Source: a virus (taxonomy: Duplodnaviria; Heunggongvirae; Uroviricota; Caudoviricetes). From it: a stretch of 21,487 nt of DNA. Position 1 is the stretch's first letter, and every line of letters starts with the position of its first letter. Shown here one piece after another: positions 1 through 18,955 of this stretch. Both the position numbers and the translations under genes were made by a program. The notes below the pieces were generated by a model. It worked only from the letters and a program-made list of their open reading frames with translations. It had not been told where the DNA came from and did not search any database. Location of the stretch: the IMG/VR virus record IMGVR_UViG_2703718857_000003, positions 1-21,487 of that record; one strand, 5' to 3'.

Positions 1-219
1 TTACATCCACATAATTTGCTGCCCTGACGGCAACGGGTGCGGCCTTACGGCGTGGACTTTTCCCGGCTTCACAATGTATCGCTGTACCGACTCATAAGTG
101 ATGAACGTGGCGCTGCAATTCACGTTCTGACACTGGTGATAACGCTCTTTTGTCGTGTCAGTGATATAGCGACTTGTACGCGCATGTGCGGCATGCTGAC
201 ATAAAGGACAATGAAACAT
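1..219 (-). CDS. ogr: Ogr late-gene transcriptional activator (zinc-finger)
   Basis: 72-aa product from internal ATG of the 1..282 ORF (MFHCPLCQHAAHARTSRYITDTTKERYHQCQNVNCSATF...), a Cys-x2-Cys...Cys-x4-Cys zinc-finger pattern; length and sequence match my recollection of P2 Ogr. GAGG Shine-Dalgarno 9 nt upstream of the ATG at 219. Confidence 0.85.
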   Translation of the reverse strand: MFHCPLCQHAAHARTSRYITDTTKERYHQCQNVNCSATFITYESVQRYIVKPGKVHAVRPHPLPSGQQIMWM

Positions 220-253
220 CGCGAGCACCTCTTCCGGTTTTGTTGATGGTGCC

Positions 254-282
254 ATTTTAGTTAATTTACCCTTATAAAACAA
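254..282 (-). promoter_or_regulatory. Candidate sigma70 promoter for ogr (-35 TTGTTT, 17-bp spacer, -10 TAAAAT on minus strand)
   Basis: Read on the minus strand upstream of the ogr ATG: TTGTTT-17 nt-TAAAAT. Hexamer match only; no experimental support. Confidence 0.35.
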
Positions 283-300
283 ACAGATAAAATAAAAACA

Positions 301-1464
301 TCACTCATTATCTTCTGTTTCGTACTCCACATCAGAAAGCCTGACCTCAAGCTCTAAGGACGTCGTGAAGCCGCTATTATTCAGAAAGTGTGTCACCTTA
401 GTGATTGTCCAGTCCTGCTCGTCTATGACGCGCTTAAAGCCAGACACTTTGACCGGTGTTTCCGTGTAAATATCTGCCCGACCGGTAGCCAGGCTGATGG
501 AGAACTCCGCGACGCCCCGTTGCAGTTTGTCCCACTTCGCCTGAGCGGCGCGCATGGCCTGCGCTTTCGTGGCATATACCGTGGTCAGGGCAAAAACGTT
601 GTCAGCCTCACCTGCCATGTATTCACCTTCGCGCGCTTCCGATACTTTTGGCGCTTTCTTCTGCGTGACTGGTTTCGCTTTCGGGTGTTCCAGTGCGCGC
701 AGGTGTTTTTCTTTCTTTTTGCGTTTCAGTTTTACCTTCTGCTTTTGTGGCTTCGGGTCTTTGGTGTGTAACCACTTTGCCGTTACGCCGGTATAGGCTC
801 CACGGTCAGCAATCGCAAAATGATGGCGGTCGCCGTCGCTGCGGGTGATGGTAATCTGCGGGATTTTTTTACCGCTGGCCGTCACCCCCTGCCCCGCTTT
901 GAGAAACAGCAGTTTTCCCATTTTTACCGACACCTCACCGCCGTTGCGTTCTGCAAGACGGGTCAGGAATTTTGCATCAGACTCCTGCGACTGGTCGATG
1001 TGCGGGATTTTAATTCCGGCCAGTGACGGAGCGACACTGGCTTCCAGCCTGTTACGGGAGGCTATCGCCTCAACAATCGCACCGAGCGTGGTGTCATGCC
1101 AGGAGCCTTCACGGCGGGAATTGAGCGTGCCACGAAAATCTGCACTCCGGGCACGGATGGTGACAACATCCGGCGCGCCCCGGTGTTCTACCTCATCAAC
1201 GGTGAATTTCCCTTTGCATACCAGGGCAAAACCTTTCCAGCCGATATACACCGTCAGGACAGCGCCACGAACCGGCAGTTCGACCTGCCCGTCGGCATCG
1301 TTCAGTTCAATATCAAGCTGGTCAGCCTCAAAGCCCCGGTTATCCGTCAGAGTCATGCTCATCAGACGGTCGCTGATATTGCCGGTAATATCCCTGCTGT
1401 CGAGCATCAGCATGTAATCCGGCGTCAGCGTACTGCCTGCATCAAATGTCAGCGCATCCGGCAT
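301..1464 (-). CDS. D: Tail protein D (P2 gpD-like)
   Basis: 387-aa ORF, same length as P2 gpD; position between U and ogr as in P2; start overlaps the U stop. Confidence 0.8.
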   Translation of the reverse strand: MPDALTFDAGSTLTPDYMLMLDSRDITGNISDRLMSMTLTDNRGFEADQLDIELNDADGQVELPVRGAVLTVYIGWKGFALVCKGKFTVDEVEHRGAPDVVTIRARSADFRGTLNSRREGSWHDTTLGAIVEAIASRNRLEASVAPSLAGIKIPHIDQSQESDAKFLTRLAERNGGEVSVKMGKLLFLKAGQGVTASGKKIPQITITRSDGDRHHFAIADRGAYTGVTAKWLHTKDPKPQKQKVKLKRKKKEKHLRALEHPKAKPVTQKKAPKVSEAREGEYMAGEADNVFALTTVYATKAQAMRAAQAKWDKLQRGVAEFSISLATGRADIYTETPVKVSGFKRVIDEQDWTITKVTHFLNNSGFTTSLELEVRLSDVEYETEDNE

Positions 1465-1943
1465 TATCCCACCCCCGTCATCCCCGTGAATTTAGTCGCC
1501 ATACTGCCAGCCTTACCGATGAGCGACTCCGCCTGTTTACCGATATCGCCATAAAGCGCGGCCAGTGATTCGTCAACGCGGGTGAGCGACAGCGTAAAAT
1601 CAATTTTTCGGGGTGTGCCGTCTGCAAAGAAAATACTCCCTGTTTCACTCACCCTGCTGATGACATACATGCCGTAAATCATGCCAGTGCCATCCAGCAA
1701 CGGCCACGCCCGGCCTTCATCTGCCATCAGCCTGAGCGTGGTCATCGTCAGCTTTCCGCCGGTCAGTTCGGGATAAAGCACACCGGCAAGCGTCATGTTT
1801 TCCTCACCCACACCGAGAAACTGGTAGGCCTCCCGTTTACCGATACGGGAATTTGACGGCCAGCGATAATCTGATTCACGCTGCATGGTCTGGTGTGGCA
1901 GCGTCTGGCGCATAAAAACAAACATACCTAACGCGAGCATCAT
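1464..1943 (-). CDS. U: Tail protein U (P2 gpU-like)
   Basis: 159-aa ORF, same length as P2 gpU; synteny T-U-D-ogr. Confidence 0.8.
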   Translation of the reverse strand: MMLALGMFVFMRQTLPHQTMQRESDYRWPSNSRIGKREAYQFLGVGEENMTLAGVLYPELTGGKLTMTTLRLMADEGRAWPLLDGTGMIYGMYVISRVSETGSIFFADGTPRKIDFTLSLTRVDESLAALYGDIGKQAESLIGKAGSMATKFTGMTGVG

Positions 1944-1957
1944 TTTTCGTCACCTCC

Positions 1958-2968
1958 TTAACCGTCATGCATCATGCTGGCACGGGCGCGCGCACGTTTA
2001 TCCCGCTCGTATTTTTCGAGCGCATCCTGTAACTGGCGGTCAAGCTGTGTCCCCGGCTCAGTACCACCCGTCAGGCTGATGTGATATTCGTTTTTACTCT
2101 GGTCTACATAAGAGCGGCCAGCCGGTGCCGTGACCGGCTGATAAGCCTGATAGCCTGCATAAGAGCTGGTCGCCGGAATATAACCACCGGTGCCATACGT
2201 GGCGGCATTAGTCCTTGCGGCGGTCTGGTCAAGTGTGTCTGACTCTTTGTTGATAACACCGAGTTTTTCCAGTACCCAGTCAATACCACTGCGCAGTTTG
2301 TTGAACGCATTAAGCGGCAGCATCAACGCGTCAGCCAGTGCCTGCCCGAACATGACGCCCGTGTCACGGCAACGGTTCAGGGTGTCCTGTGTGGCTTTAA
2401 CCGGGGCAATCAGGTTTTTAAACCACTGCCACGCGGCCTGTAACTTTTCGCCCAGCCAGTCAAACACCGGCTTCAGTGGCGTGAACAGTTCTCCCACCGG
2501 CGCAAATGCCGCTTTCAGCCCTTCCACCACACCGCCAAAGAATGCGCTGACAGGCTCCCAGTATTTACGGATAAGCAACGCCCCGGCGACAATGGCGGCC
2601 ACCACGGCCACAACCGGCCAGCTAATCGCCCCGATGGCCGTCATAACAGCACTGCCAACCGTCGTGAAGATTGCCCCCATTGCGCCTGCTGCCGCGATGA
2701 TGGCATTGATGCCAGTGATAACCGGCCAGGCTACGAGGCCAATGGCACCGATGACAGCAGTCAGCGCCAGTGCGCCACCGGCAATGAGGCCGATGGTTGA
2801 CGCCAGTGATTTGTTTTTCTGGATCCAGCCATCGAGTTTTAACACATACTTTGTGGCCGTCTGTGTGAGATTACGCAGTGCGCCTTCCTGCTGGTCAAAC
2901 AGGTCAGTCCCCACCGCCTCATAAGCAGACTGAAACTCCTTAAAGTCACCGCCGAGGTTATCCTGCAT
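1958..2968 (-). pseudogene. T: Tail tape-measure protein T, 3' fragment only (5' ~480 codons absent)
   Basis: 336-aa ORF with Gly/Ala-rich hydrophobic stretches typical of a tape measure, directly upstream of U. The reading frame is open upstream only as far as the lysB stop codon (3065-3067), so the N-terminal portion of an ~815-aa P2-type T cannot be present. Confidence 0.7.
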
Positions 2969-3018
2969 GATTTTAACCAGCTCTTCCGTTTTACCGTCCG
3001 AGGCTTTCAGCGTGGCGG

Positions 3019-3210
3019 TCAGCTTATCCAGTTTTCGGCACTTAAATCGCCGTTCGTCTGCGGGTCACTGCCCGGCATCGGGCAAAGGCTCACTTTCGGG
3101 CAGGCGTTGGGGACAATCACTGGCGTCGGTGCAGGCGTGGCGCTGGTGCAACCGGCGCACAGCATCAGGCAGGTCAGCACCGTACCAGCGGCGAAAATCT
3201 TCGTTCTCAT
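3019..3210 (-). CDS. lysC: LysC, Rz1-like lipoprotein spanin; 3' end overlaps lysB out of frame
   Basis: Product MRTKIFAAGTVLTCLMLCAGC... has a signal-peptide-like N-terminus with Cys residues (lipobox-like) and a Pro-rich tail; GAGG 8 nt upstream of the ATG at 3210. The maximal ORF extends to 3327, so the start is uncertain. Confidence 0.55.
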   Translation of the reverse strand: MRTKIFAAGTVLTCLMLCAGCTSATPAPTPVIVPNACPKVSLCPMPGSDPQTNGDLSAENWIS

Positions 3211-3490
3211 TAAGTAACCTCGTGATGGTTTTCTCGCGCTGTGCTTCACGTTTCGCGGCGTTCTCCAGTTCCTGACGCAGTGCCACCTGCGCCAGCTCGT
3301 TTTTATCTGCCCTGGTGAGCGCAACATGAAGCTGATTTTTCAGCATGGTGATGGTCGTCTGCTGACCGCTGGCGACGTTGTTCGCCCTGTCCAGCGAGGC
3401 GCGCAGGCTGGCATTTTTGTGTTTCACCAGAAACAGACCGGTCACCGCCAGCGATAACAACACGACCAGCACAATCATCAGCTTTGACAT
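3065..3490 (-). CDS. lysB: LysB, Rz-like spanin
   Basis: 141-aa ORF with an N-terminal transmembrane segment (MSKLMIVLVVLLSLAVTGLFLV) and a coiled-coil-like charged region; length equals P2 LysB; lysC lies in its +1 frame. Confidence 0.75.
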   Translation of the reverse strand: MSKLMIVLVVLLSLAVTGLFLVKHKNASLRASLDRANNVASGQQTTITMLKNQLHVALTRADKNELAQVALRQELENAAKREAQREKTITRLLNENEDFRRWYGADLPDAVRRLHQRHACTDASDCPQRLPESEPLPDAGQ

Positions 3491-3903
3491 AGTTCCCGCC
3501 CCTCAAGACGCTGACGACAGGCTTTACGTATCAGCCGGAAAAACAGCGATACCACGAGATAAATCAGTGCGGTAAAAATCCACCCGGCAGCGACCAGCGA
3601 GATAAACGTCGCCACCATCACCACCAGACCCACCGCCCGTCTGCGCCACGGCACCGGCTGCAAAAACAGCGACGTGACAATCTTCACGACCATCGATTCC
3701 GGCGGCAGCTCCCGCCCGTAGCGCTCCAGTACATACTCAGTGGCATACACGCCGACACCACAGGCAACCACACAGATAACCGTCGCCAGAATCGCCCAGG
3801 TGGCGACAAAACTGACGGCCACGCTCTGCGGGTAAATCAGGGACAGTGCCAGCATCAGCGCCAGCGACACGTTCAGCATCAGTGAAAGGGATAATTTCTT
3901 CAT
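3478..3903 (-). CDS. lysA: LysA, membrane protein of the lysis cassette (lysis timing)
   Basis: 141-aa ORF with several hydrophobic helices; length equals P2 LysA; GGAG Shine-Dalgarno upstream of the ATG. Confidence 0.7.
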   Translation of the reverse strand: MKKLSLSLMLNVSLALMLALSLIYPQSVAVSFVATWAILATVICVVACGVGVYATEYVLERYGRELPPESMVVKIVTSLFLQPVPWRRRAVGLVVMVATFISLVAAGWIFTALIYLVVSLFFRLIRKACRQRLEGRELCQS

Positions 3904-3940
3904 GGTGTTTACTCCGTTTTAAGGGCAGGGGGAAACCGTA

Positions 3941-4438
3941 ATGCCGGTTATTAACACGCATCAGAATATCGCCGCCTTTCTCGACATGCTGGCCGTGTCC
4001 GAAGGGACGGCGAACCATCCGCTGACGAAAAACCGGGGCTATGACGTGATAGTCACCGGACTGGACGGAAAGCCGGAAATTTTCACCGACTACAGTGACC
4101 ACCCGTTCGCACATGGCCGACCGGCGAAAGTGTTTAACCGTCGCGGTGAAAAATCCACGGCATCCGGTCGCTATCAGCAGCTTTACCTGTTCTGGCCGCA
4201 CTACCGCAAACAGCTTGCCCTGCCGGATTTCAGTCCGTTGTCACAGGACAGACTCGCCATTCAGTTGATCCGCGAACGCGGTGCACTGGATGACATCCGG
4301 GCGGGACGCATTGAGCGCGCCATTTCACGCTGTCGCAATATCTGGGCGTCCCTGCCGGGTGCCGGTTACGGTCAGCGTGAGCATTCACTGGAAAAACTGG
4401 TCACCGTCTGGCGTACCGCTGGCGGCGTACCGGCTTAA
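3941..4438 (+). CDS. K: Endolysin K (lambda R-like lytic transglycosylase), inverted relative to the lysis operon
   Basis: 165-aa product MPVINTHQNIAAFLDMLAVSEGT...GYDVIVTG...IWASLPGAGYGQ has clear similarity to lambda R-family lysozymes and the length of P2 gpK. It is on the opposite strand from flanking Y and lysA. Confidence 0.85.
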   Translation: MPVINTHQNIAAFLDMLAVSEGTANHPLTKNRGYDVIVTGLDGKPEIFTDYSDHPFAHGRPAKVFNRRGEKSTASGRYQQLYLFWPHYRKQLALPDFSPLSQDRLAIQLIRERGALDDIRAGRIERAISRCRNIWASLPGAGYGQREHSLEKLVTVWRTAGGVPA

Positions 4439-4696
4439 GCGGCGCTGAATGGCAATCTCAATCACCTGATAACCGGCGATACCCAGCATGGAGCCGATGC
4501 CGCACACCGCAGGCAGTGACAGGTCAGGAAACTGCACCAGAACAACACCGGCAACCATCGAGACAAAACCACCGAGCAACATGCGCCCGATAAACAGACG
4601 CGGGGTGATGGGTTCACCACCGGCAAGCACCTTGCCGACAACAATCAGCACCCCAATCATGAAAAGCGACAGGACGCTTTTTTCTTCTGCTGTCAT
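4385..4696 (-). CDS. Y: Holin Y, with C-terminus altered by the adjacent inversion
   Basis: 103-aa ORF with hydrophobic helices (LSLFMIGVLIVVGKVLAGG..., GFVSMVAGVVLVQF). The last 17 codons run through the 3' end of the inverted K segment. Confidence 0.7.
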   Translation of the reverse strand: MTAEEKSVLSLFMIGVLIVVGKVLAGGEPITPRLFIGRMLLGGFVSMVAGVVLVQFPDLSLPAVCGIGSMLGIAGYQVIEIAIQRRLSRYAASGTPDGDQFFQ

Positions 4697-4699
4697 GCG

Positions 4700-4903
4700 T
4701 TACTCCCACAGATTGACAGTTTCAGCCACGGGCGCGGTCTGAACGTCGGGCAGTTCGACGGCGGTGCCGTGCGGCAGCACCGCACCCAGTTCAGCCAGTC
4801 CCGGATTTGCGGCGAGCACAGCCTCGACCACGCCCTCAGTGCGTCCGTAATACCGGACACAGATGGCGTCGAGCGTGTCGCCCTGTAGCGCAAAGGTCTT
4901 CAT
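4700..4903 (-). CDS. X: Tail protein X (P2 gpX-like, 67 aa)
   Basis: 67 aa from the internal ATG (MKTFALQGDTLDAICVRYYGRTEG...), the length of P2 gpX; synteny L-X-Y. Confidence 0.65.
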   Translation of the reverse strand: MKTFALQGDTLDAICVRYYGRTEGVVEAVLAANPGLAELGAVLPHGTAVELPDVQTAPVAETVNLWE

Positions 4904-5412
4904 CAGATTTGACTCACGATGCAGCGCGGCTTGTCCTGGATGCGCGCCACTGCCCAGCGCATATCCCGCCACAGCTCATCAATGGTGCTGTCAATGCTGT
5001 CGGCCTTCTTGTCGCCCTTGGCACTGGCATCCACGCCGCGGTAACGCTCATAAAGCGACGCGGTCGCCATCGCACACACGGCGCGCTCGTAGTAAAAAAC
5101 TTTGATGCTTTCACCGTCGATGTCGTCCGCCGGAACGTCCGCCAGACGCGTAAAACCGGCGGCAATTGTCTGTTCGCGGTACTCGTACAGCTCCGCATTC
5201 GTCTCCGCCATGCCTGACTTGATGGCCTCACGCAGACGGGCGGGGGCGACGGTCTGCTCAAGGCGCATACGTTCCCGGACGCGCTTCGGGTCGATATCGG
5301 GAAAAAAGAACGTGTTTTTAATCACCGGCTCGTCGCCTGCCGGTTGCGGGATAACCACCGTACCCTCACCGGACACGGGAGCCTCCTTTCGCGGAATAAT
5401 CAGCGTCATCAT
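4903..5412 (-). CDS. L: Head completion/stabilisation protein L
   Basis: 169 aa from internal Met (MMTLIIP...), the length of P2 gpL; synteny M-L-X. Confidence 0.75.
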   Translation of the reverse strand: MMTLIIPRKEAPVSGEGTVVIPQPAGDEPVIKNTFFFPDIDPKRVRERMRLEQTVAPARLREAIKSGMAETNAELYEYREQTIAAGFTRLADVPADDIDGESIKVFYYERAVCAMATASLYERYRGVDASAKGDKKADSIDSTIDELWRDMRWAVARIQDKPRCIVSQI

Positions 5413-5511
5413 GACTACCTCTGAAAAGTCGGGCGGTGGACGCCGGTGTAGTGTCAGGTGATTCACCGTCACTGACCGGCGTGCCGCCCTGGCGCGGGGC
5501 GCATTCGGTTG

Positions 5512-6255
5512 TTAACTGGCTTTCTTTTTCGGGCGTCCACGTTTTGCCGGTGTCACGCTCCGGGTCTTACGCGGAGTGCGGGTGGCCGCTTTGGGCTGCG
5601 GCTCCGGCTTCGGTTTCAGCTCCCGCTCCAGTCGTTCAATCTCTTTTTTGACGCCTGCCTGACAGTCGAGCTGTGTCGCACGTTGCAGGTGCGCCAGCGC
5701 ACCGGCGGCATCACCAGCGTCACGCAGAAACAGACCGGTGATTTTGTGCAGCTTTGCGCGCACTTCATCAGGCATGTCAGCCGTGGCGGTCAGTTCGAGG
5801 GTGTCCGTCAGCAGGCGGGGATTCACAGACTCACCGGCAGCGTGAGCGCGCATGGCCGCAAGCGCCACCTCCTCGGTGAACATGTACGGCGGGGTGCGGC
5901 GGTGTTTACCCGGCATGGTCAGACCGTACTTCAGGGCATAACGGGCAATCTCCAGCGCACCGGCAATATCGCCGGTATCCAGACGCCACAGCATGACCGT
6001 CATCAGAATGTCATCCTGTGCACCTTTGCCCTGCTCCAGCACGCCGTTCACCCACGGCAACCAGAACGGCAGCAGTTCGCGTTTTTTCGCGGCCTTCAGC
6101 TCTTTTGAATAAATTGCTTTCAGTGTGCGCTGGTCTGCGGCCAGCTTGACCAGCATCTGCTCATAGACAGTTGCATGTCGCAGCGGGGCGGCTTCCCGCT
6201 GCGCGGTCATCGCTGCCGAGACCCGCATCATGTGGCGCTGTGCGGGACTCGTCAT
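5512..6255 (-). CDS. M: Terminase endonuclease (small) subunit M
   Basis: 247-aa ORF, the length of P2 gpM; basic Lys/Arg/Pro-rich C-terminus; synteny N-M-L. Confidence 0.8.
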   Translation of the reverse strand: MTSPAQRHMMRVSAAMTAQREAAPLRHATVYEQMLVKLAADQRTLKAIYSKELKAAKKRELLPFWLPWVNGVLEQGKGAQDDILMTVMLWRLDTGDIAGALEIARYALKYGLTMPGKHRRTPPYMFTEEVALAAMRAHAAGESVNPRLLTDTLELTATADMPDEVRAKLHKITGLFLRDAGDAAGALAHLQRATQLDCQAGVKKEIERLERELKPKPEPQPKAATRTPRKTRSVTPAKRGRPKKKAS

Positions 6256-6258
6256 CGG

Positions 6259-7332
6259 TTACGCTCCCGGCTCTGCGGTCGCCTTAGCCGGTGTGGAGAA
6301 ATCACCGACCTTAATTTTTTCCACCAGACAACCGGCGGCGTAGTCTTCCACCACGTAATCAATGTTCATTGACTCGTAGTTCTCCACGCGGTCGAGTTTC
6401 GGGTTTTCCTCAATCACGCGGCGATGGCTGTCATCCATGTAGTAGATGGACAGGTTTTCCAGCTTCGTGATGAGCATCGCATCCGCCGGGAAGTACGGGA
6501 CGCGTACCGCCGGCAGGTTACCGATGCGTTTCTGACTGATGATGACGTCAGCGGCCAGCATTTCGCTGTTGTCCTGCTCCTTGTTGACGATGGGGAAATA
6601 CTTGTCCGCCAGTAGCTGACGCCCCACAATCACCACAAGGTCAGGGTCTTCCTGATACCACGGCTCAATCAGGTTGTTGGTCGCATCCATCACCAGTGCA
6701 TCGAGGCTGGCATAATCACCGCCCTTACCCACGCGGATGACCTCAGAGGTCGTGTGACCTTCCTCGTCCGTAACCTTGCTCATCACGCGCGCCGGGGCTT
6801 CATTGCGGTATTTCTGCAGCCAGCCGACCGCCACATCCTGCAGCATCGGATTGCTGCTGCGGTCAGAGGTTTCTGCACGCTTCACACCGTTAAAACCGGC
6901 CATGATGAAATCAAGGGACTGGCGTTTGATAATGGCGTTACGGACACGGAGCTGGAAATCCTGATAACGCGCCCACAGGTCAAGCGTTTTGTAGCGGATA
7001 TAAAAATCGAAGTTAATCTGGTCGCATTCGTACTTGTTTGACGCCAGCTTCGAGAAGTCCTTCGGCTGACGCTCGGTGCCACCGGCGGTGTCGGTGGTGC
7101 TGGCGATGGAGCCGGTGACACCGATACCAATTTTTTCCCCTTTCATTTCGCTGACCGGCACAATGTTGATGCGGGTCAGAAAGTCAGAGGACTCCTGCAT
7201 GGTGTTCATCAGGGTCTGGGTGACCGACGGTTCAACGGTGAATTTTTTCGACACATCACCGGCGTCGATGCCGTTCAGTTCGGCAACACGGGACAGGTAA
7301 GCATTAAATTTAAAGCGGGTTTCCTGGCGCAT
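6259..7332 (-). CDS. N: Major capsid protein N
   Basis: 357-aa ORF, the length of P2 gpN; synteny O-N-M. Confidence 0.85.
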   Translation of the reverse strand: MRQETRFKFNAYLSRVAELNGIDAGDVSKKFTVEPSVTQTLMNTMQESSDFLTRINIVPVSEMKGEKIGIGVTGSIASTTDTAGGTERQPKDFSKLASNKYECDQINFDFYIRYKTLDLWARYQDFQLRVRNAIIKRQSLDFIMAGFNGVKRAETSDRSSNPMLQDVAVGWLQKYRNEAPARVMSKVTDEEGHTTSEVIRVGKGGDYASLDALVMDATNNLIEPWYQEDPDLVVIVGRQLLADKYFPIVNKEQDNSEMLAADVIISQKRIGNLPAVRVPYFPADAMLITKLENLSIYYMDDSHRRVIEENPKLDRVENYESMNIDYVVEDYAAGCLVEKIKVGDFSTPAKATAEPGA

Positions 7333-7390
7333 AGTTTTTCCTGAAATTAAGGGTTAATCGTGAAGGTTTTCCCGGACTGACTGACGCCGG

Positions 7391-8245
7391 TCAGCAGTTC
7401 GTCATCAGGGCGTCACCGCCACCACCGGTGGCCTTGCTGCGGCGCTGCTGGGTCAGACTTTCGGTGTGGTCGAGACTGTTTTTCAGGCGGGTGAATGCCT
7501 GGCTGGTTTCATCCGCCCTGTCAGTCACCTCCTGCTTAAGTGAGGAAAAGGCGGTTTCCATCTCAGCGAGGCGCTGCTCAGTGGCGCTCAGTTTTTCCTG
7601 CACATGTTCAGCGACAGCGGTCACCGCTTCATGCACGTCATTCAGACGGGCATCATCGCTGGCCTGTTTGCGGCCAAAAATGGACTTCACCTTTTCGGTC
7701 AGGGCGGTGAACACGGTTTCAGGCAGGTCTTCAAATTCCAGCTCAACAGGCGTTGCCACTGAAATCAGGTTTTCAGGGCTTAATTTGAAGCGGTTCAGGG
7801 GGTTGTGTTTTGCCGTGCGGCAGAATTCCAGGTATTCCGTGCCGAGGCTTGCCGGGTCATCGGTGACGGCCAGCCCCACCAGATAACATTTGCCGGTATT
7901 GGCAAAGTTCGGCTGAATTTCCATTGAGGTATAGACCTTCTGCGCGGCCTTGTTCATCGCGATAAGGTCATCGGTCGGGGTGATTTTCGCAAACAGCGCC
8001 CATTTGCCTTTCAGCGCCGAATCATCGTCAATCTTTTCGGCCTTCAGTTCGGCCACATCGCCATAACGCTTAAAAATACCGTCAGGCAGGATGCCGCGCA
8101 GATGTTCCAGGTTAATGCGGCAACCATAGACACGCGGGTCAAAGGTTTCGGCCATTTCCTGAATATCCTGCGCACTGATGACACGCCCGTCACAGGTGTC
8201 ACCCTCAACGCCGATACGAAAGAATTTTGAGACTTTTTTTGCCAT
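7391..8245 (-). CDS. O: Capsid scaffolding protein O
   Basis: 284 aa from the internal ATG at 8245 (MAKKVSKFFRIGVEGD...), the length of P2 gpO; coiled-coil-like C-terminus; divergent from P. Confidence 0.8.
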   Translation of the reverse strand: MAKKVSKFFRIGVEGDTCDGRVISAQDIQEMAETFDPRVYGCRINLEHLRGILPDGIFKRYGDVAELKAEKIDDDSALKGKWALFAKITPTDDLIAMNKAAQKVYTSMEIQPNFANTGKCYLVGLAVTDDPASLGTEYLEFCRTAKHNPLNRFKLSPENLISVATPVELEFEDLPETVFTALTEKVKSIFGRKQASDDARLNDVHEAVTAVAEHVQEKLSATEQRLAEMETAFSSLKQEVTDRADETSQAFTRLKNSLDHTESLTQQRRSKATGGGGDALMTNC

Positions 8246-8418
8246 TGTCAGGAGTCCTGAATAGTGATTAGAGGAGTCACATGTCGGCATCAGTTTCCCG
8301 ACGATGCGCATCCTCCGCCATCAGTCCCGGATGGCTTATCACTGACACAACAGCACCTTAGCGAATCGCGGGGCGCGACTCAGTAGCCTTGCCGTGTATT
8401 CATCACGGCGAGGTATTC
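8246..8418. promoter_or_regulatory. Divergent late-promoter region between O and P (expected Ogr-dependent)
   Basis: Position only: the intergenic space between divergent O and P start codons is where P2 carries its O- and P-operon late promoters. I could not identify the activator dyad with confidence. Confidence 0.3.
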
Positions 8419-9656
8419 ATGACCATCACCACAGACACCACTCTTTTACACGACCCGCGTCGTCAGGCGGCGCTGCTGTACTGGCAGGGGTTTTCCGTGC
8501 CGCAGATTGCCGCCATGTTGCAGATGAAACGCCCGACAGTGCAGAGCTGGAAACAGCGCGACGGCTGGGACAGCGTTGCCCCCATCAGCCGTGTCGAAAT
8601 GAGTCTGGAAGCGCGGCTGACCCAGCTCATCATCAAACCACAGAAAACCGGCGGTGACTTCAAGGAAATTGACCTGCTGGGACGCCAGATTGAACGACTG
8701 GCACGGGTCAACCGCTACAGCCAGACCGGCAACGAGGCAGACCTTAATCCGAACGTCGCTACCCGTTCTGGTCGGGTGAACTGTTCAACCGGGGACGCGC
8801 CAGCGCCGCCGAACGCGTGGAAATCGACGTCAGTCATAACGCACTTGCCGGAGGTCTTCTCTGTGCGGACGGCCAGTGGCGGCAGATTGTCACCATTGAG
8901 GACGCCCTGAAAGGTGGCTGCACGCTGTTCGACATTGAGCAGCTTAAACGCGAAAACAGCGCCGACGATTTTAAAAACCTGTTCATGTGTGAATTTGTTG
9001 ACGACAAGGCGTCGGTGTTCCCGTTCGAGGAGCTGCAACGCTGCATGGTCGACACGCTGGAAGAATGGGAAGACTATGCGCCGTTTGCCGCCAATCCGTT
9101 CGGCTCACGTCCGGTATGGATTGGTTACGACCCGTCACACCGTGGCGACAGTGCCGGATGCGTGGTGCTGGCACCGCCGGTGGTGGCCGGTGGCAAATTC
9201 AGAATACTTGAGCGTCACCAGTGGAAAGGCATGGACTTTGCCACCCAGGCTGAATCCATCCGCGAACTCACCGAAAAATACAACGTCGAATACATCGGTA
9301 TTGATGCCACCGGCCTCGGTGTCGGCGTGTTCCAGCTCGTGCGCTCGTTCTATCCCGCCGCGCGCGATATCCGCTACACGCCGGAAATGAAAACCGCAAT
9401 GGTGCTCAAGGCAAAAGACGTTATTCGCCGTGGCTGTCTGGAATATGACGTCAGCGCCACCGACATCACCAGCTCGTTTATGGCTATCCGCAAGACCATG
9501 ACCAGCAGCGGACGCAGCGCCACCTATGAGGCCAGCCGCAGCGAGGAAGCCAGCCACGCCGACCTCGCCTGGGCGACCATGCACGCCCTGTTAAATGAGC
9601 CACTCACCGCGGGTATCAGCACTCCGCTGACATCCACCATTCTGGAGTTTTACTGA
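8419..9656 (+). pseudogene. P: Large terminase (ATPase) subunit P, internally deleted and frameshifted
   Basis: The N-terminal part (MTITTDTTLLHDPRRQAALLYWQGF...NPNVA) is in one frame and the C-terminal RNaseH-like nuclease part (YPFWSGELF...VWIGYDPSH...IGIDATGLG...HADLAWA) is in another; the frames overlap between 8658 and 8910. The total span is ~412 codons versus ~590 for P2 gpP, and no Walker A/B ATPase segment is present. Confidence 0.7.
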
Positions 9657-10684
9657 TGAGCAAGAAAAAAGGGAAAACACCGCGACTAGCGGCAAAAAAA
9701 ATGACCGCCAGCGCCCCGAAAATGGAGGCATTCACCTTTGGTGAACCGGTGCCGGTACTCGACCGCCGTGACATTCTGGATTACGTCGAGTGCATCAGTA
9801 ACGGCAGATGGTATGAGCCACCGGTCAGCTTTACCGGTCTGGCAAAAAGCCTGCGTGCTGCCGTACATCACAGCTCACCGATTTACGTCAAACGTAATAT
9901 TCTGGCTTCAACGTTTATTCCGCACCCGTGGCTTTCCCAGCAGGATTTCAGCCGCTTTGTGCTGGATTTTCTGGTGTTCGGCAATGCGTTTCTGGAAAAG
10001 CGTTACAGCACCACCGGTAAGGTCATCAGACTGGAAACCTCACCGGCAAAATATACCCGCCGTGGGGTGGAAGAGGATGTTTACTGGTGGGTGCCGTCCT
10101 TCAACGAACCGACAGCCTTCGCGCCCGGCTCCGTATTTCACCTGCTGGAGCCGGATATCAATCAGGAGCTGTACGGCCTGCCGGAATATCTCAGCGCCCT
10201 TAACTCTGCCTGGCTGAATGAGTCGGCCACGCTGTTCCGCCGCAAGTATTATGAAAACGGCGCACATGCCGGATACATCATGTACGTCACCGATGCCGTG
10301 CAGGACCGCAACGATATCGAAATGCTTCGCGAAAACATGGTTAAGTCGAAAGGCCGCAATAACTTTAAAAATCTGTTTCTCTATGCCCCACAGGGGAAAG
10401 CCGACGGCATTAAAATTATCCCGCTCAGTGAAGTGGCAACGAAGGACGATTTTTTTAATATCAAAAAAGCCAGCGCCGCTGACCTGCTGGACGCGCACCG
10501 CATCCCCTTTCAGTTGATGGGGGGCAAGCCGGAGAACGTCGGGTCGCTGGGTGATATTGAGAAAGTGGCAAAGGTCTTTGTCCGCAATGAGCTTATCCCG
10601 TTACAGGACAGGATCCGCGAGATAAACGGCTGGCTCGGTCAGGAGGTCATCCGCTTTAAAGATTACAGTCTAGAATCTAATTAA
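9656..10684 (+). CDS. Q: Portal protein Q
   Basis: 342-aa ORF, close to the 344 aa of P2 gpQ; start overlaps the P stop (ATGA); synteny P-Q next to cos. Confidence 0.85.
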   Translation: MSKKKGKTPRLAAKKMTASAPKMEAFTFGEPVPVLDRRDILDYVECISNGRWYEPPVSFTGLAKSLRAAVHHSSPIYVKRNILASTFIPHPWLSQQDFSRFVLDFLVFGNAFLEKRYSTTGKVIRLETSPAKYTRRGVEEDVYWWVPSFNEPTAFAPGSVFHLLEPDINQELYGLPEYLSALNSAWLNESATLFRRKYYENGAHAGYIMYVTDAVQDRNDIEMLRENMVKSKGRNNFKNLFLYAPQGKADGIKIIPLSEVATKDDFFNIKKASAADLLDAHRIPFQLMGGKPENVGSLGDIEKVAKVFVRNELIPLQDRIREINGWLGQEVIRFKDYSLESN

Positions 10685-10694
10685 GTACCCTTAG

Positions 10695-10712
10695 CGCCGT
10701 CTCCAGACGGCG
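10695..10712. terminator. Bidirectional hairpin between convergent Q and the cargo operon
   Basis: Perfect 7-bp GC-rich stem CGCCGTC/GACGGCG with loop TCCA, 11 nt after the Q stop and between the two convergent gene ends; followed by T-rich sequence on the plus strand. Confidence 0.45.
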
Positions 10713-10779
10713 TGATTCTATGCAATCCAGGCAAGATTAACCCCCAACACCTTCAATTACTATATGGTTTAATAGAAAT

Positions 10780-11469
10780 TCAATCTTTAACTTCAATATA
10801 TGAAGAAGAAAACCATATAGATTTTTTCCCATTTATGTATTTAGAAACAGGCGAGCCATCTTCGTTCATTGCCTCAGCACTAAATGTTACATAATACATT
10901 CCTTTTTCTTTTGTCGAAACAAGATAGTTCAAGCGTCTTTCGGCAGAGATAGGAACGGATATATCATATAAAGGTATATTTTTAGCTTTTCCTTGCGAGC
11001 TACTTTCTTCATTAAGAACAGCCAACTCCTCATAATAATTTGGATAAAAAACTTCCGTAGCGACTTGCTTTGCACCGGCCGATAAAACACGACTAACAGC
11101 AAGGGACTTGTTATTAAGCTTCACATAAATTCGCTCATTACTGTTATTCCTAATAGTTACAATAGGCTTTATATAAAACACATCATCGATTTTAACAACA
11201 TTAACGTCAACATTAAAAAATGTCGATTCTGTATTTCTAATTCTATTTCTTAACTCTATAAGATCAGCTTCTGCCTTATCCCTTTGGTGCAAAACATCAA
11301 AAGTATATCCTCCCCACACAAGTGTCAAAACAGCGCACAATGACATCACGACGTTATTAAACTGATCGTGTGTTCTGTAAATATCTTTGAATTTTAAAAT
11401 TAATAATAGACATGCTATGAATAGCATGCCTATTATCAGCCAGTGTTCTTTTACAAATTCAAAGTTCAT
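10780..11469 (-). CDS. Uncharacterised membrane protein with two N-terminal TM helices and a beta-rich soluble C-terminal domain (cargo)
   Basis: 229-aa ORF; hydrophobic segments WLIIGMLFIACLLLIL and VVMSLCAVLTLVWGGYTF, then a Ser/Asn/Lys/Val/Tyr-rich soluble domain. AT-rich codon usage; start 2 nt after the stop of the upstream ORF. No family recognised by eye. Confidence 0.6.
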   Translation of the reverse strand: MNFEFVKEHWLIIGMLFIACLLLILKFKDIYRTHDQFNNVVMSLCAVLTLVWGGYTFDVLHQRDKAEADLIELRNRIRNTESTFFNVDVNVVKIDDVFYIKPIVTIRNNSNERIYVKLNNKSLAVSRVLSAGAKQVATEVFYPNYYEELAVLNEESSSQGKAKNIPLYDISVPISAERRLNYLVSTKEKGMYYVTFSAEAMNEDGSPVSKYINGKKSIWFSSSYIEVKD

Positions 11470-11471
11470 AG

Positions 11472-12554
11472 TTAGTCACTCGCATGCCTCGCATCACCAT
11501 CTTCAGGGAAATTGATCCCCTGTCCGATCTCACGGTTCGTTGGACGAGCAGAAACAAAGCCTCTATTTTGTCTTTTTAAACGCAACTCTAGAACTTGAGA
11601 AACTCTATCAAAGTTTAATCCATCCATTGCAACCTCTTTTTTCCCTTCAATATGAGATCGAAGTTCCTCACTTATACGATTATCAACCGTTGAAGCGAAG
11701 GCTACATCATGATTAAAAATGGCCCCCATAATTAACATAAACGCAATTCCGGCCTTTCTATTATTTGTTTTAAATTGTAGCCAAACATCCCCCGGAGACA
11801 TCAACATTTGTTGAGCAGTCAAGGATAACTCTCCATTATTAGAAAGTCTTTCCATCTCAAACTGAACAACTTCGTTTGTATACTCGCCATCAAACTCTTC
11901 GCCAATTAATAGCGCAAGTACCTGCACTCTATCGACCAGCTCAGCCAGCTGCTTAAGAGTATGATGCCGAATGGCTTCTGCTTGCTCGACTCTTAAGCTA
12001 GTACAGAAAATATTATCCGTTATAAAGAATGACATTAACCAATGCAGTACTTCTTCTGACTTCCCGCCCAAAGAGAATACGGTCTGGTATGCAGTAAACG
12101 ATTTCTGAAGAGCTAATGGAATCTCTCGTCTGCGAACTGGCTCTCCCCATGTGACTCTACGTCTTACATGAAACCCTTCATTATTACCTAAACATTCACG
12201 CTCAAAATACGCGGAAGATGCAATAACTCCAGGAACAACCATATCACCTGACAAAGTGAAAACAACATCACCGACCTGCATATCTATGAGGAAATTTTCA
12301 ATTTGGGTATGAATATTTCTTGAACCAATAGTATCTAACCCATCAACCTTTTGATTAATATTTTCATGGTTAATTTCATCATTAAAGTCAATTTGATCTG
12401 GACTTAACCTATCCAAGTGAGCAGTAGCAACCATATTGCGTTCAAGGAAGTCTGCAAAATATCTATACTTAATCCCAGGTCTAACGACCCAACACTTTAC
12501 ATTTAAATCAACATGTTGTACTGAAATAGCTCTTTGTGATGAAGTTCCAAGCAT
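11472..12554 (-). CDS. Uncharacterised soluble protein, first gene of the two-gene cargo operon
   Basis: Long AT-rich ORF; 361 aa from the first ATG at 12554, or 366 aa from the TTG at 12572. No Walker, HNH, DxD-nucleotidyltransferase or other motif recognised by eye. Confidence 0.55.
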   Translation of the reverse strand: MLGTSSQRAISVQHVDLNVKCWVVRPGIKYRYFADFLERNMVATAHLDRLSPDQIDFNDEINHENINQKVDGLDTIGSRNIHTQIENFLIDMQVGDVVFTLSGDMVVPGVIASSAYFERECLGNNEGFHVRRRVTWGEPVRRREIPLALQKSFTAYQTVFSLGGKSEEVLHWLMSFFITDNIFCTSLRVEQAEAIRHHTLKQLAELVDRVQVLALLIGEEFDGEYTNEVVQFEMERLSNNGELSLTAQQMLMSPGDVWLQFKTNNRKAGIAFMLIMGAIFNHDVAFASTVDNRISEELRSHIEGKKEVAMDGLNFDRVSQVLELRLKRQNRGFVSARPTNREIGQGINFPEDGDARHASD

Positions 12555-12778
12555 AGCTGATCCATAATTCAAAAAATTTTACGCATTTTACATATTTTTA
12601 TTTAAGACTCTAGAGCGTTAGGAATGATGAATCGCTTCAACAGATTATTTTTTGTGCAGATAGTGTGCTTAAACCAACTCATCGTAACGAAAGCACTCGC
12701 CTGAATCGTAAAGATAACATCTCATGACTCGATTCATAGGCTAATAGTATTATGCAATGGTCGTTAATGGAGCGCGCA

Positions 12779-12797
12779 GTGCTTTCCCCGCCTCGCC
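12779..12797. other. cos site: 19-nt cohesive-end sequence GGCGAGGCGGGGAAAGCAC (read on minus strand)
   Basis: Exact match, on the minus strand, to the 19-nt cohesive-end sequence as I recall it for phage P2 (not verified against a database). Followed towards the Q side by TGCGCGCT and then AT-rich cargo. A GC hairpin plus T-run (12797-12820) abuts it on the A side. Confidence 0.6.
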
Positions 12798-12939
12798 CGC
12801 CCGCTTCGTGGGGCGGTTTTAATGCAGATGCATTATGAGCCCTGAGCTGCGCCTAACGTGACACAGTTCACGAGAAAAATAGGAATTATCAAATGCAATT
12901 TCATGCAGATAGAGAGGCATGAGATCCCGAAGCTTATAT

Positions 12940-14292
12940 TCAACCCTCTGCCGAAATATTTCTTTGGAGAAATGCTCTAATTTTTTGCCTGAAAGCCTCA
13001 CATTCATCAGGCTTTAACCTCTCAAGGTATTCAAAAATCCTAGTTTCATCCCAGCCGTTGTTATAGGTTTTCACTACCCCTCGATAAACTTGCTTATCAA
13101 GTTTATCGTTACCTCTAGTTGTAACTCTCGGGATCGATTCATCTTGGCCGTATGCTTGATAGAAATCCTTCTCAACGCTTTGGAAAGGTATGCATAAAAT
13201 ATTTTCACCTCGAGCATACCTTTGACCTAATTGATCTCCGTCTAACACTGAGATCACATTCTGTTGAGTCGTGAGAAAGCTCTCTCTCTCATTACGACGC
13301 ATTAAATCAATGACATTAGTTCCTCCACCAACATATATTATTTTATATTCGTAGAAGTAATCATTCCCAGGAGCATTAATTATATATTCTAAGAAATTTT
13401 GCAGAACTTCATCTTCAGTAAGAATGTACTTATCCCATCCTTTAAATCCAAAAAGCGTACTTTTTATATAATTATATGATCGATTTGTAATTGTAGTTCC
13501 AGCATCACCTTCGCACATATAGTACAATTCATCATCATTCAGCGTTTGCATTAAAGCAAGTGAATGTGTTGTGAATACAATATTCACCGAGTGTCTCTGA
13601 CAATATTTCCTTAGCACTGCTATAAGATGGACTTGCGCCGAAGAGTCTAGTGATATATCTATCTCATCTATGACAATGAATTTTCTTTTGAGCTCAATCA
13701 TTCTAAATAAATTCAAAATAAAATACTCACCCGAGCTAAAGTAATCCTCCCTTATGTATGTTCCGTTCTCATTCAATCTGAAATAGAAAATTTCATTTTT
13801 TACAGAAAATGCTTTAAGATTATTGTAAGAAGAAGACTGATATACCTCATTGAGTATATTTATCAAATCCTCGGGAACGCTATAGCTTTCAAACGCAATA
13901 CTTTTTCTAAGTTCAGTATCAATTTTACTAAGTGTTGGGAAGTTATTGAACCTCATTCCATGAGGAATGGGCAACTCGACATAAAGATTGGATTTTATAT
14001 CTGCTGGAATTATTTGCTTAGTATCTATTACCTTCAAATTCTCATCATAGACATATACTATATCTTGATCATTAATATTATATACTATACTACTGTCAGG
14101 ATTGAATATATATCTAGAAGATGTCTTTATGAATGTATCTGCTGATTGTAAATTTTTAATTGCTTTGATTAGCGTTGTCTTTCCAGCACCGTTCTTTCCT
14201 ACAATGCAAGTCAGTTTATTTTCAGAAAGATCAATAGCAAATGACATATGTTCAACATGCTGGATTTTCGAGATCTCAATATTTATTTTCAT
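12940..14292 (-). CDS. OLD-family ABC-type ATPase with C-terminal Toprim-like domain (retron-associated effector candidate)
   Basis: 450 aa; Walker A GKNGAGKTT near the N-terminus, Walker B FIVIDEIDISLD, H-loop-like VFTTHS; C-terminal ILTEDEV and VLDGDQLG resemble the Toprim Glu and DxD motifs. Start ATG is 1 nt after the RT stop, indicating translational coupling. Confidence 0.7.
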   Translation of the reverse strand: MKINIEISKIQHVEHMSFAIDLSENKLTCIVGKNGAGKTTLIKAIKNLQSADTFIKTSSRYIFNPDSSIVYNINDQDIVYVYDENLKVIDTKQIIPADIKSNLYVELPIPHGMRFNNFPTLSKIDTELRKSIAFESYSVPEDLINILNEVYQSSSYNNLKAFSVKNEIFYFRLNENGTYIREDYFSSGEYFILNLFRMIELKRKFIVIDEIDISLDSSAQVHLIAVLRKYCQRHSVNIVFTTHSLALMQTLNDDELYYMCEGDAGTTITNRSYNYIKSTLFGFKGWDKYILTEDEVLQNFLEYIINAPGNDYFYEYKIIYVGGGTNVIDLMRRNERESFLTTQQNVISVLDGDQLGQRYARGENILCIPFQSVEKDFYQAYGQDESIPRVTTRGNDKLDKQVYRGVVKTYNNGWDETRIFEYLERLKPDECEAFRQKIRAFLQRNISAEG

Positions 14293-14293
14293 T

Positions 14294-15283: not shown

Positions 15284-15289
15284 CGTTGG

Positions 15290-15440
15290 CTGAGCTTTTG
15301 TTTTTTGAGTTGAATGGATTCTAAGATGAATGCTTTAACTCTCAGTCTTTCCTCACCCCAGACACCCTCCCTTCGCAGGCTTTACTTCTTGTACATACCT
15401 TCTCTCGAAAGAGAAGGCAGTACAAGAGCAACACTATATA
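15290..15440 (-). ncRNA. Candidate retron msr/msd non-coding RNA region (boundaries uncertain)
   Basis: Non-coding stretch immediately upstream of the RT containing a long interrupted hairpin at 15387-15427 (8-bp stem TCTTGTAC/GTACAAGA, internal loop, 7-bp stem CCTTCTC/GAGAAGG, loop TCGAAA), as expected for an msd stem. I could not identify a1/a2 flanking repeats by eye. Confidence 0.3.
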
Positions 15441-15456
15441 AAGGCCTGTAGAGGCC
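15441..15456 (-). terminator. Possible intrinsic terminator downstream of A (minus strand)
   Basis: 5-bp GC stem GGCCT/AGGCC with loop GTAG, followed on the minus strand by TTTATATA. The stem is short, and it could instead be part of the ncRNA. Confidence 0.25.
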
Positions 15457-15609
15457 AACATTTATGACTGGAGATGCTCCTAGTCGTTGGCATAAAAACA
15501 CTTTAAACCAGATTATGAGCATTTACAACATTTCAAGCCGTCGAACGCAGCCCCAATCAGAAAAGAACTCACACGGCCATCATAACATCATGATTTAGAT
15601 GGATATAAA

Positions 15610-18892: not shown

Positions 18893-18955
18893 GACTTTCT
18901 CCAGGCAAAAAGAAGCCCCGCACGATTAAGTGCGTTAAAAACTCTGGTTAATTAT

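What the first reader, a model, noticed from the sequence alone, without database searches (positions are those of the whole stretch)
1958..3070. Whole tail-assembly block (R through 5' half of T) is missing; tape-measure gene is a 3' stump
lysC ends at 3019 and, about 50 bp later, the reading frame of the tape-measure C-terminus begins; that frame is closed by the lysB stop codon at 3065-3067. In P2 synteny the genes R, S, V, W, J, I, H, G, Z/fun, FI, FII, E/E' and ~480 codons of T (roughly 10 kb) lie between lysC and this point. The element therefore cannot build a tail, yet keeps D, U and the T C-terminus. The junction lies within about 3019-3065.
Basis: partly seen in the sequence, partly recalled or inferred. 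Interest (0 to 1): 0.45.

Follow-up and report, generated by a model that had tools for sequence, protein, structure and literature searches.

The report
Freshly crippled P2-like prophage lacking tail genes
The window is an E. coli P2-type prophage that very recently lost its 10.3-kb tail-gene block through a real deletion. It also carries a flipped lysis gene and a broken DNA-packaging gene, so it is an ordinary, if unusually young, defective prophage.

Summary
On the minus strand, the last 358 codons of tape-measure gene T (1958-3034) abut a truncated lysC. The junction is at 3035-3036, where 2 bp are shared by both sides.

An intact sibling prophage (GCA_054732435.1) is identical base for base to the window outside the breakpoints. 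Measured against it, the deletion is exactly 10,297 bp. It removes the lysC 3' end, R, S, a 246-aa cargo ORF, V, W, J, I, H, G, FI, FII, E/E' and T codons 1-456.

The window equals that sibling plus three operations:
- the tail deletion;
- a conservative 521-bp inversion of endolysin gene K (3918-4438);
- a 535-bp frameshifting deletion in terminase gene P (junction 8759-8761).

There are no substitutions over about 20.5 kb.

The junction is not a mis-join. Two separately deposited NCBI assemblies and one Logan run assembly carry identical junctions, and the breakpoints share no homology. None of 5,426 complete E. coli genomes has the tail junction or the K inversion.

The element is therefore a very young defective Peduovirus prophage, not a natively tail-less satellite. 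Sibling prophages carry other large late-region deletions, so this kind of decay is common. Interest is low to moderate. The only unusual point is three microhomology-scale rearrangements with no point mutations.

The parts
1958..3034 (-). 3' stump of tape-measure gene T (residues 458-815 plus stop). The first in-frame ATG is at 2968, giving a 336-aa ORF.
   Evidence: tblastn with P2 T. The stretch 974-3034 (2,061 bp) is identical to the T/U/D of sibling L042. Frame translation.
3035..3036 (.). Deletion junction lysC|T. These 2 bp (TC on +, GA on -) are shared by both parental sequences. Base 3037 comes from lysC and base 3034 from T.
   Evidence: Three-way alignments with P2, Wphi, L016, L029, L042 and L043; greedy reconstruction.
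3019..3210 (-). Truncated chimeric lysC' (Rz1-like o-spanin): 58 native residues plus ENWIS plus a neo-stop located in T-derived DNA.
   Evidence: Translation against P2 LysC; Pfam LysC match covers profile positions 1-42 of 69 only.
3065..3490 (-). lysB, intact (141 aa). Its stop codon (3065-3067) is in frame with T and closes the T frame upstream.
3478..3903 (-). lysA, intact (141 aa).
3918..4438 (+). Inverted 521-bp segment carrying the ribosome-binding site and the intact endolysin gene K (ORF 3941-4438). It now lies antisense to the late O operon. The inversion is conservative, with 2 bp of microhomology at each end.
   Evidence: The K protein is 100% identical to P2 K.
4385..4696 (-). 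Holin Y' with an altered C-terminus: 88 native residues plus 15 new ones (103 aa instead of 93), a consequence of the K inversion.
   Evidence: This exact protein occurs in only 3 contigs of the collection.
8419..9656 (+). Large terminase gene P with a 535-bp frameshifting internal deletion (junction 8759-8761, CTA microhomology). The N-terminal ORF ends at 8910. The C-terminal part (from 8760) is in another frame. Most of the ATPase domain is lost.
1464..1943 (-). Tail gene U, intact (159 aa).
301..1464 (-). Tail gene D, intact (387 aa). Six substitutions at 642-973 match the alleles of a yegQ-site P2-like prophage.
1..219 (-). ogr late-gene activator (72 aa plus stop).
4700..8245 (-). Intact head and head-completion genes O, N, M, L and tail gene X.
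   Evidence: full-length matches, 97.6-99.6% amino-acid identity.

Best explanation
The window is a P2-like (Peduovirus) prophage of E. coli, integrated between pflB and pflA. A fully intact ancestor, still found unchanged in other isolates, suffered a 10,297-bp illegitimate (non-homologous) deletion. The deletion joined codon 59 of lysC to codon 457 of T at 2 bp of shared sequence. It removed every tail, baseplate, fibre, sheath and tube gene from R to E/E', the first 456 codons of T, and the pV and pF late promoters.

The T stump, U and D remain only because the distal breakpoint fell inside T. They now sit as a passive transcriptional extension of the O operon.

The same element has two more lesions of the same microhomology type: a conservative flip of the endolysin gene K, and a frameshifting 535-bp deletion in terminase P. 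It therefore cannot make tails, cannot package DNA, and lacks expressed endolysin and a complete o-spanin.

Shown here: the structures, the breakpoints, the isogenic intact parent and the reproducibility across assemblies.

Inferred: the molecular mechanism (microhomology-mediated end-joining, a topoisomerase-type exchange, or template switching), and whether the three lesions arose in one episode or under selection against host killing.
For: - Breakpoint mapping to P2 and Wphi.
- All other P2 gene homologues in the window are full length.
- Intact sibling prophage: GCA_054732435.1, contig DBLRQZ010000003.1, has the same cargo, intact P, forward K, and lysC-R-S-orf246-V-W-J-I-H-FI-FII-E-T.
- The window (21,487 bp) is exactly the 32,319-bp parent minus 535 bp, minus 10,297 bp, with one 521-bp inversion. 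There are 0 substitutions in 18,453 + 2,061 bp.
- Identical junctions occur in GCA_001576505.1 (100% over 14.7 kb), GCA_019228025.1 and Logan SRR15116329.
- No homology at the breakpoints beyond 2-3 bp. The longest shared words within +-150 bp are 8-9 nt and lie away from the junctions.
- Independent large late-region deletions occur in sibling prophages: L039 (Y to J, 4.7 kb), L042 (J to FI, 4.0 kb) and L011.
- Defective P2-like prophages that keep intact defence cargo are described in PMC13586616.
Against: - No read-level data could be examined.
- The Logan run may be the read set behind one of the two NCBI assemblies, so the number of independent isolates may be two rather than three.
- No intermediates with one or two lesions were found, so the order and mechanism of the events are unresolved.
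- Loss of function (no tails, no packaging, no lysis) is inferred from gene content and was not tested.
Confidence: 0.9

Rival explanations
1. Assembly artefact: the lysC|T junction is a mis-join or collapse, and the true genome has an intact tail module here.
For: - The source assemblies are drafts.
- The host lineage carries a second, about 97% identical P2-like element.
- The D gene shows a mosaic of alleles that could reflect assembler path-switching between the two copies.
Against: - The same junction, K inversion and P deletion appear base for base in assemblies deposited under different accessions and in Logan's own assembly of an SRA run.
- The two sides of the junction share only 2 bp, so no k-mer graph could join them without reads that span it.
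- Repeat collapse between two prophages would join homologous positions, not lysC to mid-T.
Confidence: 0.03
2. A natively tail-less, helper-dependent element (like a capsid-forming satellite): it makes its own heads and borrows tails, terminase and lysis functions from a co-resident P2-like helper.
For: - Head genes Q, O, N, M, L, the cos site, replication genes A and B, and int/cox/C are all intact.
- A second P2-like prophage type, complete in E. coli Combat13F7, has left its alleles in this element's D gene.
Against: - Tail-lessness is not a lineage trait. The sibling with an identical backbone has the full tail module.
- The leftovers (T stump, U, D, X, truncated lysC) are debris from a deletion.
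- Its own large terminase is frameshifted and K is inverted.
- The configuration occurs in only 3 contigs out of billions of gene records and in 0 of 5,426 complete genomes.
- From my own knowledge, not tested: 21.5 kb is about 65% of P2 genome length, which may be too short for stable packaging in P2-size heads.
Confidence: 0.04
3. The deletion arose by homologous or unequal recombination between the two co-resident P2-like prophages, or by deliberate engineering.
For: - Recombination between the two prophages clearly happens. L004 crosses over in D and continues into the yegQ flank.
- The inverted K segment ends exactly at K's stop codon, which looks tidy.
Against: - lysC and mid-T share no homology.
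- There are no scars, cassettes or FRT/lox sites.
- The P and tail breakpoints fall inside genes and out of frame.
- K's tidy end is explained by the TTTAAG/CTTAAA inverted repeat, which includes the TAA stop.
Confidence: 0.02

Closest known systems
Bacteriophage P2 and Wphi (Peduovirus, Peduoviridae)
   Same: - Gene order ogr-D-U-T ... lysC-lysB-lysA-K-Y-X-L-M-N-O | P-Q | cos | cargo | A-orf83-82-81-80-B-orf78-cox | C-int.
- Shared blocks are 94-98% identical in nucleotide sequence.
- Shared late and replication proteins are about 90-100% identical.
   Different: - Lacks R to mid-T.
- K is inverted and P is internally deleted.
- The immunity and integration module differs: Int is 53% identical, C 51%, Cox 35% to P2, and the attachment site lies between pflA and pflB.
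- The cargo is a type I-B retron plus a DUF8426 pair instead of old/tin.
Defective or 'grounded' P2-like prophages of E. coli, such as incomplete P2-like regions that retain defence genes (PMC13586616). The K-12 ogrK-yegZ remnant at yegQ is a further example, cited from my own knowledge.
   Same: Core morphogenesis functions are lost by deletion or pseudogenisation, while the defence cargo stays intact. Sibling prophages L039, L042 and L011 show comparable large internal deletions.
   Different: This one is extremely young: 0 substitutions against an intact sibling. Its three lesions are all structural, and there are no point pseudogenes.
Capsid-forming satellites (cf-PICI) and P4-type satellites
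   Same: An integrated element with a cos site and no tail genes, in a host lineage that also carries a P2-like phage.
   Different: In satellites the absence of tail genes is ancestral and conserved, and packaging specificity is functional. Here the tail genes were lost by a datable deletion and the terminase is broken. The element works like a dead prophage, not like a satellite.
R-type tailocins (P2-derived contractile bacteriocins)
   Same: A P2-type morphogenetic cluster reduced to one half of the virion.
   Different: This is the mirror image. Tailocins keep the tail and lysis genes and lose the head and replication genes. This element keeps head and replication genes and loses the tail. 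There is no sign of selection for a product.

Membership tests
P2-like (Peduovirus) prophage | P2 synteny of the head, lysis, replication and control genes, with high sequence identity. | tested here: met
   26 P2 gene homologues in P2 order. Shared nucleotide blocks are 94-98% identical.
P2-like (Peduovirus) prophage | A cos site, a tyrosine integrase, and integration at a defined chromosomal site. | tested here: met
   The cos match is at 12771-12826. The 331-aa Int always lies next to pflA, and the window's own contig has pflB next to ogr.
Complete (viable) P2-like prophage | A full tail module: R, S, V, W, J, I, H, G, FI, FII, E/E', T, U, D. | tested here: not met
   tblastn finds none of R through E and only T residues 458-815. 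The deletion is 10,297 bp against the sibling.
Complete (viable) P2-like prophage | An intact large terminase P and a co-oriented lysis cassette Y-K-lysA-lysB-lysC. | tested here: not met
   P has a 535-bp frameshifting deletion. K is inverted, the Y C-terminus is altered and lysC is truncated.
Capsid-forming, tail-less phage satellite | Absence of tail genes is the conserved native architecture of the lineage. | tested here: not met
   The sibling with an identical backbone carries the tail module. The tail-less form occurs in only 3 contigs.
Capsid-forming, tail-less phage satellite | Mobilisation by a helper phage, producing transducing particles. | not testable with these tools
   This needs an induction and transduction experiment.
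Microhomology-mediated illegitimate recombination product | Junctions with 1-10 bp of shared sequence and no extended homology. | tested here: met
   The four junctions share 2, 2, 2 and 3 bp. There are no shared words longer than 9 nt within +-150 bp, and none at the breakpoints.

The most novel reading that the evidence does not exclude
The three lesions (535-bp deletion, conservative 521-bp inversion, 10.3-kb deletion) all lie within 16.5 kb of the late region, all have 2-3 bp junctions, and there is not one substitution relative to the intact sibling. They could therefore be the product of a single multi-break or multi-template-switch episode. That would be a bacterial, prophage-scale analogue of chromothripsis or chromoanasynthesis, perhaps during an abortive in-situ induction. 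Such an event would have grounded a fully functional P2-like prophage at once while preserving its retron defence cargo. The hits on K, lysC, Y and P would also remove every host-killing function.
Probability: 0.2. Interest if true: 0.5.

Novelty: new member of a known kind. Interest (0 to 1): 0.22.

Why it matters
The value is mostly practical. Annotation should call this a defective prophage with pseudogenes T', lysC' and P', and an antisense K. It should not be called an intact phage or a satellite.

It is also a clean, datable example of how a prophage is inactivated. Three structural hits occurred with no point mutations, and an identical intact parent is still circulating. The anti-phage cargo, a type I-B retron, is untouched. 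That fits the view that hosts keep the useful cargo of prophages while losing the dangerous functions. If sister isolates with one or two of the lesions can be found, the case could show whether such inactivation happens stepwise or in one event.

Tried and rejected
- Exact junction k-mers for the tail deletion, the P deletion and the K inversion were searched in GTDB representative genomes, IMG/VR and JGI metagenome contigs. No scan gave a hit, so no intermediates or extra carriers were found there.
- Megablast of the junction regions against 5,426 complete E. coli genomes found none spanning the tail junction or the K inversion. For P, the tool joins the two flanks across the 535-bp gap, so the hits shown are intact P genes.
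- Exact-protein look-ups of LysC' (63 aa) and the P' N-terminal ORF (163 aa) are not on record.
- The 336-aa T-stump ORF matched only a Logan contig (L016) that actually holds an intact-length T region. That contig served as a parental T sequence.
- The window's D protein is unique to GCA_001576505.1. This led to the discovery of the mosaic D alleles.
- A promoter and terminator scan of 1-4800 gave nothing above shuffled expectation. No promoter-like site lies upstream of the inverted K, and no terminator lies between lysB and T'.
- An Rfam scan of the whole window gave no hit at gathering score, so the retron msr/msd was not located.
- A literature search for the assembly accession found nothing.
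- I rejected in-register recombination within the 6-bp inverted repeat TTTAAG/CTTAAA as the origin of the K inversion, because the junctions are offset by 1 nt from that prediction.
- I rejected homologous recombination as the origin of the deletions.

Full report
**1. What the window is**

The 21,487-bp window runs exactly from the stop codon of ogr (position 1, minus strand) to the stop codon of an integrase gene (21,487, plus strand). It is a P2-like prophage.

Megablast against phage records gives 95-97% identity to P2, Wphi and many Peduovirus genomes, but in separate pieces. BLASTN against P2 (NC_001895) and Wphi (NC_005056), whose annotations were read, resolves these blocks:
- window 1-3036/3039 = ogr, D, U and the 3' part of T;
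- window 3035-3919 = the 5' part of lysC, lysB and lysA;
- window 3914-4442 = gene K, in the opposite orientation;
- window 4437-8766 = Y, X, L, M, N, O and the 5' end of P;
- window 8750-10666 = the 3' part of P, and Q;
- the cos site at 12771-12826;
- window 15628-19637 = A through orf78.

A tblastn of every P2 protein shows that R, S, V, W, J, I, H, G, FI, FII and E are absent. T is present only from residue 458, lysC only to residue 59, and P in two out-of-frame pieces. All other genes are full length.

**2. The finding itself**

- On the minus strand, the T reading frame is open from 3064 to the stop at 1958-1960. It is closed upstream by the lysB stop codon at 3065-3067.
- Homology to T starts at 3034-3036, and the first ATG is at 2968.
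- Three-way alignments with parental-type sequences place the junction at 3035-3036. The sequences used were lysC from P2, Wphi and L029, and T from L016, L042 and L043. The two junction bases are common to both parents, base 3037 is lysC-derived and base 3034 is T-derived. The surrounding 5 nt match 4 of 5.

It begins at 3210, keeps 58 native residues including the lipoprotein signal and cysteine, then reads ENWIS and stops at 3019-3021 inside T-derived DNA. Its last 38 residues are gone (P2 LysC has 96 residues). Pfam sees only profile positions 1-42 of 69 of the LysC model.

The putative O-operon attenuator annotated in P2 lysC and the pV and pF promoters lie in the deleted interval. T', U and D are therefore now simply downstream of the O operon. 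The consensus scan found no terminator-like site between lysB and T' above chance.

**3. Source and reproducibility**

The chimeric 103-aa holin created by the K inversion was looked up by exact sequence. It exists in only three contigs of the collection:
- GCA_001576505.1, contig LOPQ01000018.1;
- GCA_019228025.1, contig DAESSZ010000004.1;
- a Logan assembly of run SRR15116329.

The first is 100% identical to the window over the 14.7 kb fetched. The Logan contig is 100% identical over 6.8 kb. The second differs only by 21 substitutions, all within window 43-826. All three carry the lysC|T junction, the K inversion and the P deletion.

In the window's own contig, the prophage lies between pflB (next to ogr) and, by inference, pflA. 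In thousands of contigs the same 331-aa integrase always sits next to pflA.

None of 5,426 complete E. coli genomes spans the tail junction or the K inversion junction. Junction k-mers are absent from GTDB representatives, IMG/VR and JGI metagenomes.

**4. The intact parent**

Look-ups with the cargo reverse transcriptase and with LysA found GCA_054732435.1, contig DBLRQZ010000003.1 (loci L022 and L029), with four similar places not shown. This contig has the same integrase and the same unusual cargo combination. It also has an intact 590-aa P, Y (93 aa) and K in the normal orientation, lysA, lysB and lysC. After those come R, S, a 246-aa ORF, V, W, J, I, H, FI, FII, E, E' and an 815-aa T.

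I built a composite parent from this contig, plus L042 for the 3' part of T through ogr. The two sources agree perfectly over their 631-nt overlap. The window was then reconstructed exactly. The parent measures 32,319 bp from int stop to ogr stop. The window is this parent after three operations:
- a 535-bp deletion in P (window junction 8759-8761, CTA shared);
- a conservative inversion of 521 bp (window 3918-4438, 2 bp shared at each end, no base lost or gained);
- a 10,297-bp deletion (junction 3035-3036).

The arithmetic closes: 32,319 - 535 - 10,297 = 21,487.

Outside the junctions there are zero substitutions in 18,453 bp (int to lysC) and in the next 2,061 bp (T', U and the 5' part of D). 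The lesions are therefore very recent, and the lineage natively has the tail genes.

**5. Nature of the lesions**

No homology exists at the breakpoints. The longest words shared within +-150 bp are 8-9 nt and do not coincide with the junctions. This excludes homologous or unequal recombination, including recombination between two resident prophages, as the source of the deletions.

The inverted K segment runs from 23 nt upstream of the K start codon, including its ribosome-binding site, to the last base of its TAA stop. Its ends fall in a 6-bp inverted repeat (TTTAAG...CTTAAA). However, the junctions are offset by 1 nt from what an in-register exchange would give.

Consequences:
- K is intact (100% identical to P2 K) but antisense to the late operon. 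No promoter-like site was found upstream of it.
- Holin Y loses its last 5 residues and gains 15.
- The P deletion removes most of the Terminase_6N ATPase domain and shifts the frame.

Gene content therefore predicts that the element cannot make tails, cannot package DNA, and lacks expressed endolysin and a complete o-spanin. This is inference from established P2 genetics, as summarised in the NC_001895 annotation. It was not tested.

**6. How it probably happened**

The junction pattern fits microhomology-scale illegitimate recombination: end-joining, a topoisomerase-type exchange, or replicative template switching. The exactly conservative inversion argues against extensive end resection at those two breaks.

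Whether the three lesions were one episode or sequential hits is unresolved. Zero substitutions and the absence of any intermediate in the databases favour a short time span. The search for intermediates was limited, however, to exact k-mers and to proteins that gene callers happened to predict.

All three lesions remove or disable host-killing functions: endolysin, spanin, holin tail, and terminase cos cleavage. This would also fit selection on survivors of late-gene expression. That is speculation.

**7. This kind of decay is common here**

Among the sibling prophages that share the identical U protein:
- L039 (E. coli EF7-18-58, CP068591.1) has a 4.7-kb deletion from Y to J.
- L042 has a 4.0-kb deletion from J to FI.
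- L011, at the same attachment site, joins the A region to tail-fibre genes.

[quoted passage not shown] The present element fits that description. Its cargo is a type I-B retron reverse transcriptase with an ATPase-Toprim partner and is untouched.

**8. A second P2-like element in the host lineage**

The only substitutions between the window and its siblings lie in D and ogr. Six of the seven (973, 952, 709, 688, 651, 642) are the alleles of a different P2-like prophage type, one that sits at the yegQ site. In E. coli Combat13F7 that prophage is complete, with sheath, tube, T, U, D and ogrK.

The GCA_019228025.1 contig carries that type's alleles from 973 to the end of ogr, then continues into yegQ-yegP-baeR-baeS instead of pflB. 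Given the gene orders seen, the two prophages are in opposite chromosomal orientation, so a crossover in D would invert the pflB-yegQ interval.

The mosaic in the window could be gene conversion, or it could be assembler path-switching between two copies. Either way it indicates that a second D-ogr copy exists in these genomes. A potential helper is likely present in the lineage, but I could not inspect the rest of the genome.

**9. Verdict**

The feature is a new instance of a well-known kind, a deletion-inactivated P2-like prophage. It is not a mis-assembly and not a natively tail-less satellite.

Its only unusual aspect is its youth and the triple structural inactivation without point mutations. 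Interest is low to moderate.

Noticed in passing
window 3918-4438 (K ORF 3941-4438, + strand); Y' 4385-4696 (-): The endolysin gene K, with its ribosome-binding site, is inverted relative to the whole late operon. The flip is exactly conservative, 521 bp long, with 2-bp junction microhomologies inside a 6-bp inverted repeat. It gives holin Y a new 15-residue C-terminus. The configuration was found in only 3 contigs worldwide.
   Followed up: yes
window 8419-9656 (junction 8759-8761): Large terminase gene P has a 535-bp out-of-frame internal deletion at a CTA microhomology within an imperfect repeat of about 17 bp. Most of the ATPase domain is lost.
   Followed up: yes
window 642-973 (gene D); L004 13700-15000; L047: D carries two short patches of alleles from a yegQ-site P2-like prophage type. 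The sister assembly GCA_019228025.1 switches to that type within D and continues into yegQ-baeRS. This implies a second P2-like prophage in the lineage and probably a prophage-mediated pflB-yegQ chromosomal inversion. Assembler path-switching between the two copies is the alternative.
   Followed up: partly
window 12940-15283 (-): The cargo between cos and gene A is a type I-B retron: a 329-aa RT (PADLOC RT_I-B, E = 6.5e-110) and a 450-aa ATPase-Toprim (E = 3.3e-179). No Rfam hit was obtained for an msr/msd RNA, which would be expected upstream of the RT, around 15284-15600.
   Followed up: partly
window 10667-12770 (ORFs 10780-11469 and 11472-12572, -); cos 12771-12826: A second cargo pair lies between the end of Q and cos: a DUF8426 protein with a weak PDC-S02 match, plus a 229-aa protein with no family hit. 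It replaces P2 positions 28-210, including the tQ terminator, and changes the last residues of Q (342 aa instead of 344). In complete E. coli genomes the two cargo halves occur separately and meet only at cos. None of the 5,426 genomes has both, so the combination may have arisen by exchange at cos.
   Followed up: partly
L039 (CP068591.1), L042 (GCA_017761175.1), L011 (GCA_949281605.1): Sibling prophages at the same pflA/pflB site carry other large internal deletions: Y to J (4.7 kb), J to FI (4.0 kb), and an A-to-tail-fibre join. The alignment blocks on either side of the first two deletions overlap by 4 nt and 6 nt in the query, which suggests short microhomology; those junctions were not aligned base by base.
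   Followed up: partly
window 19634-21487: The immunity and integration module is not P2's. Int is 53% identical, C 51% and Cox 35% to the P2 proteins. This integrase is very common (listed in 13,402 blocks of the collection), and in the 10 places shown it lies next to pflA.
   Followed up: partly
L016 (Logan ERR10121322 contig, 2,431 bp): This contig has full-length T-region DNA that is 99.8% identical to the stump. The gene caller split it into two ORFs (290 aa and 336 aa), so it may contain a frameshift or stop in T. This was not examined.
   Followed up: no
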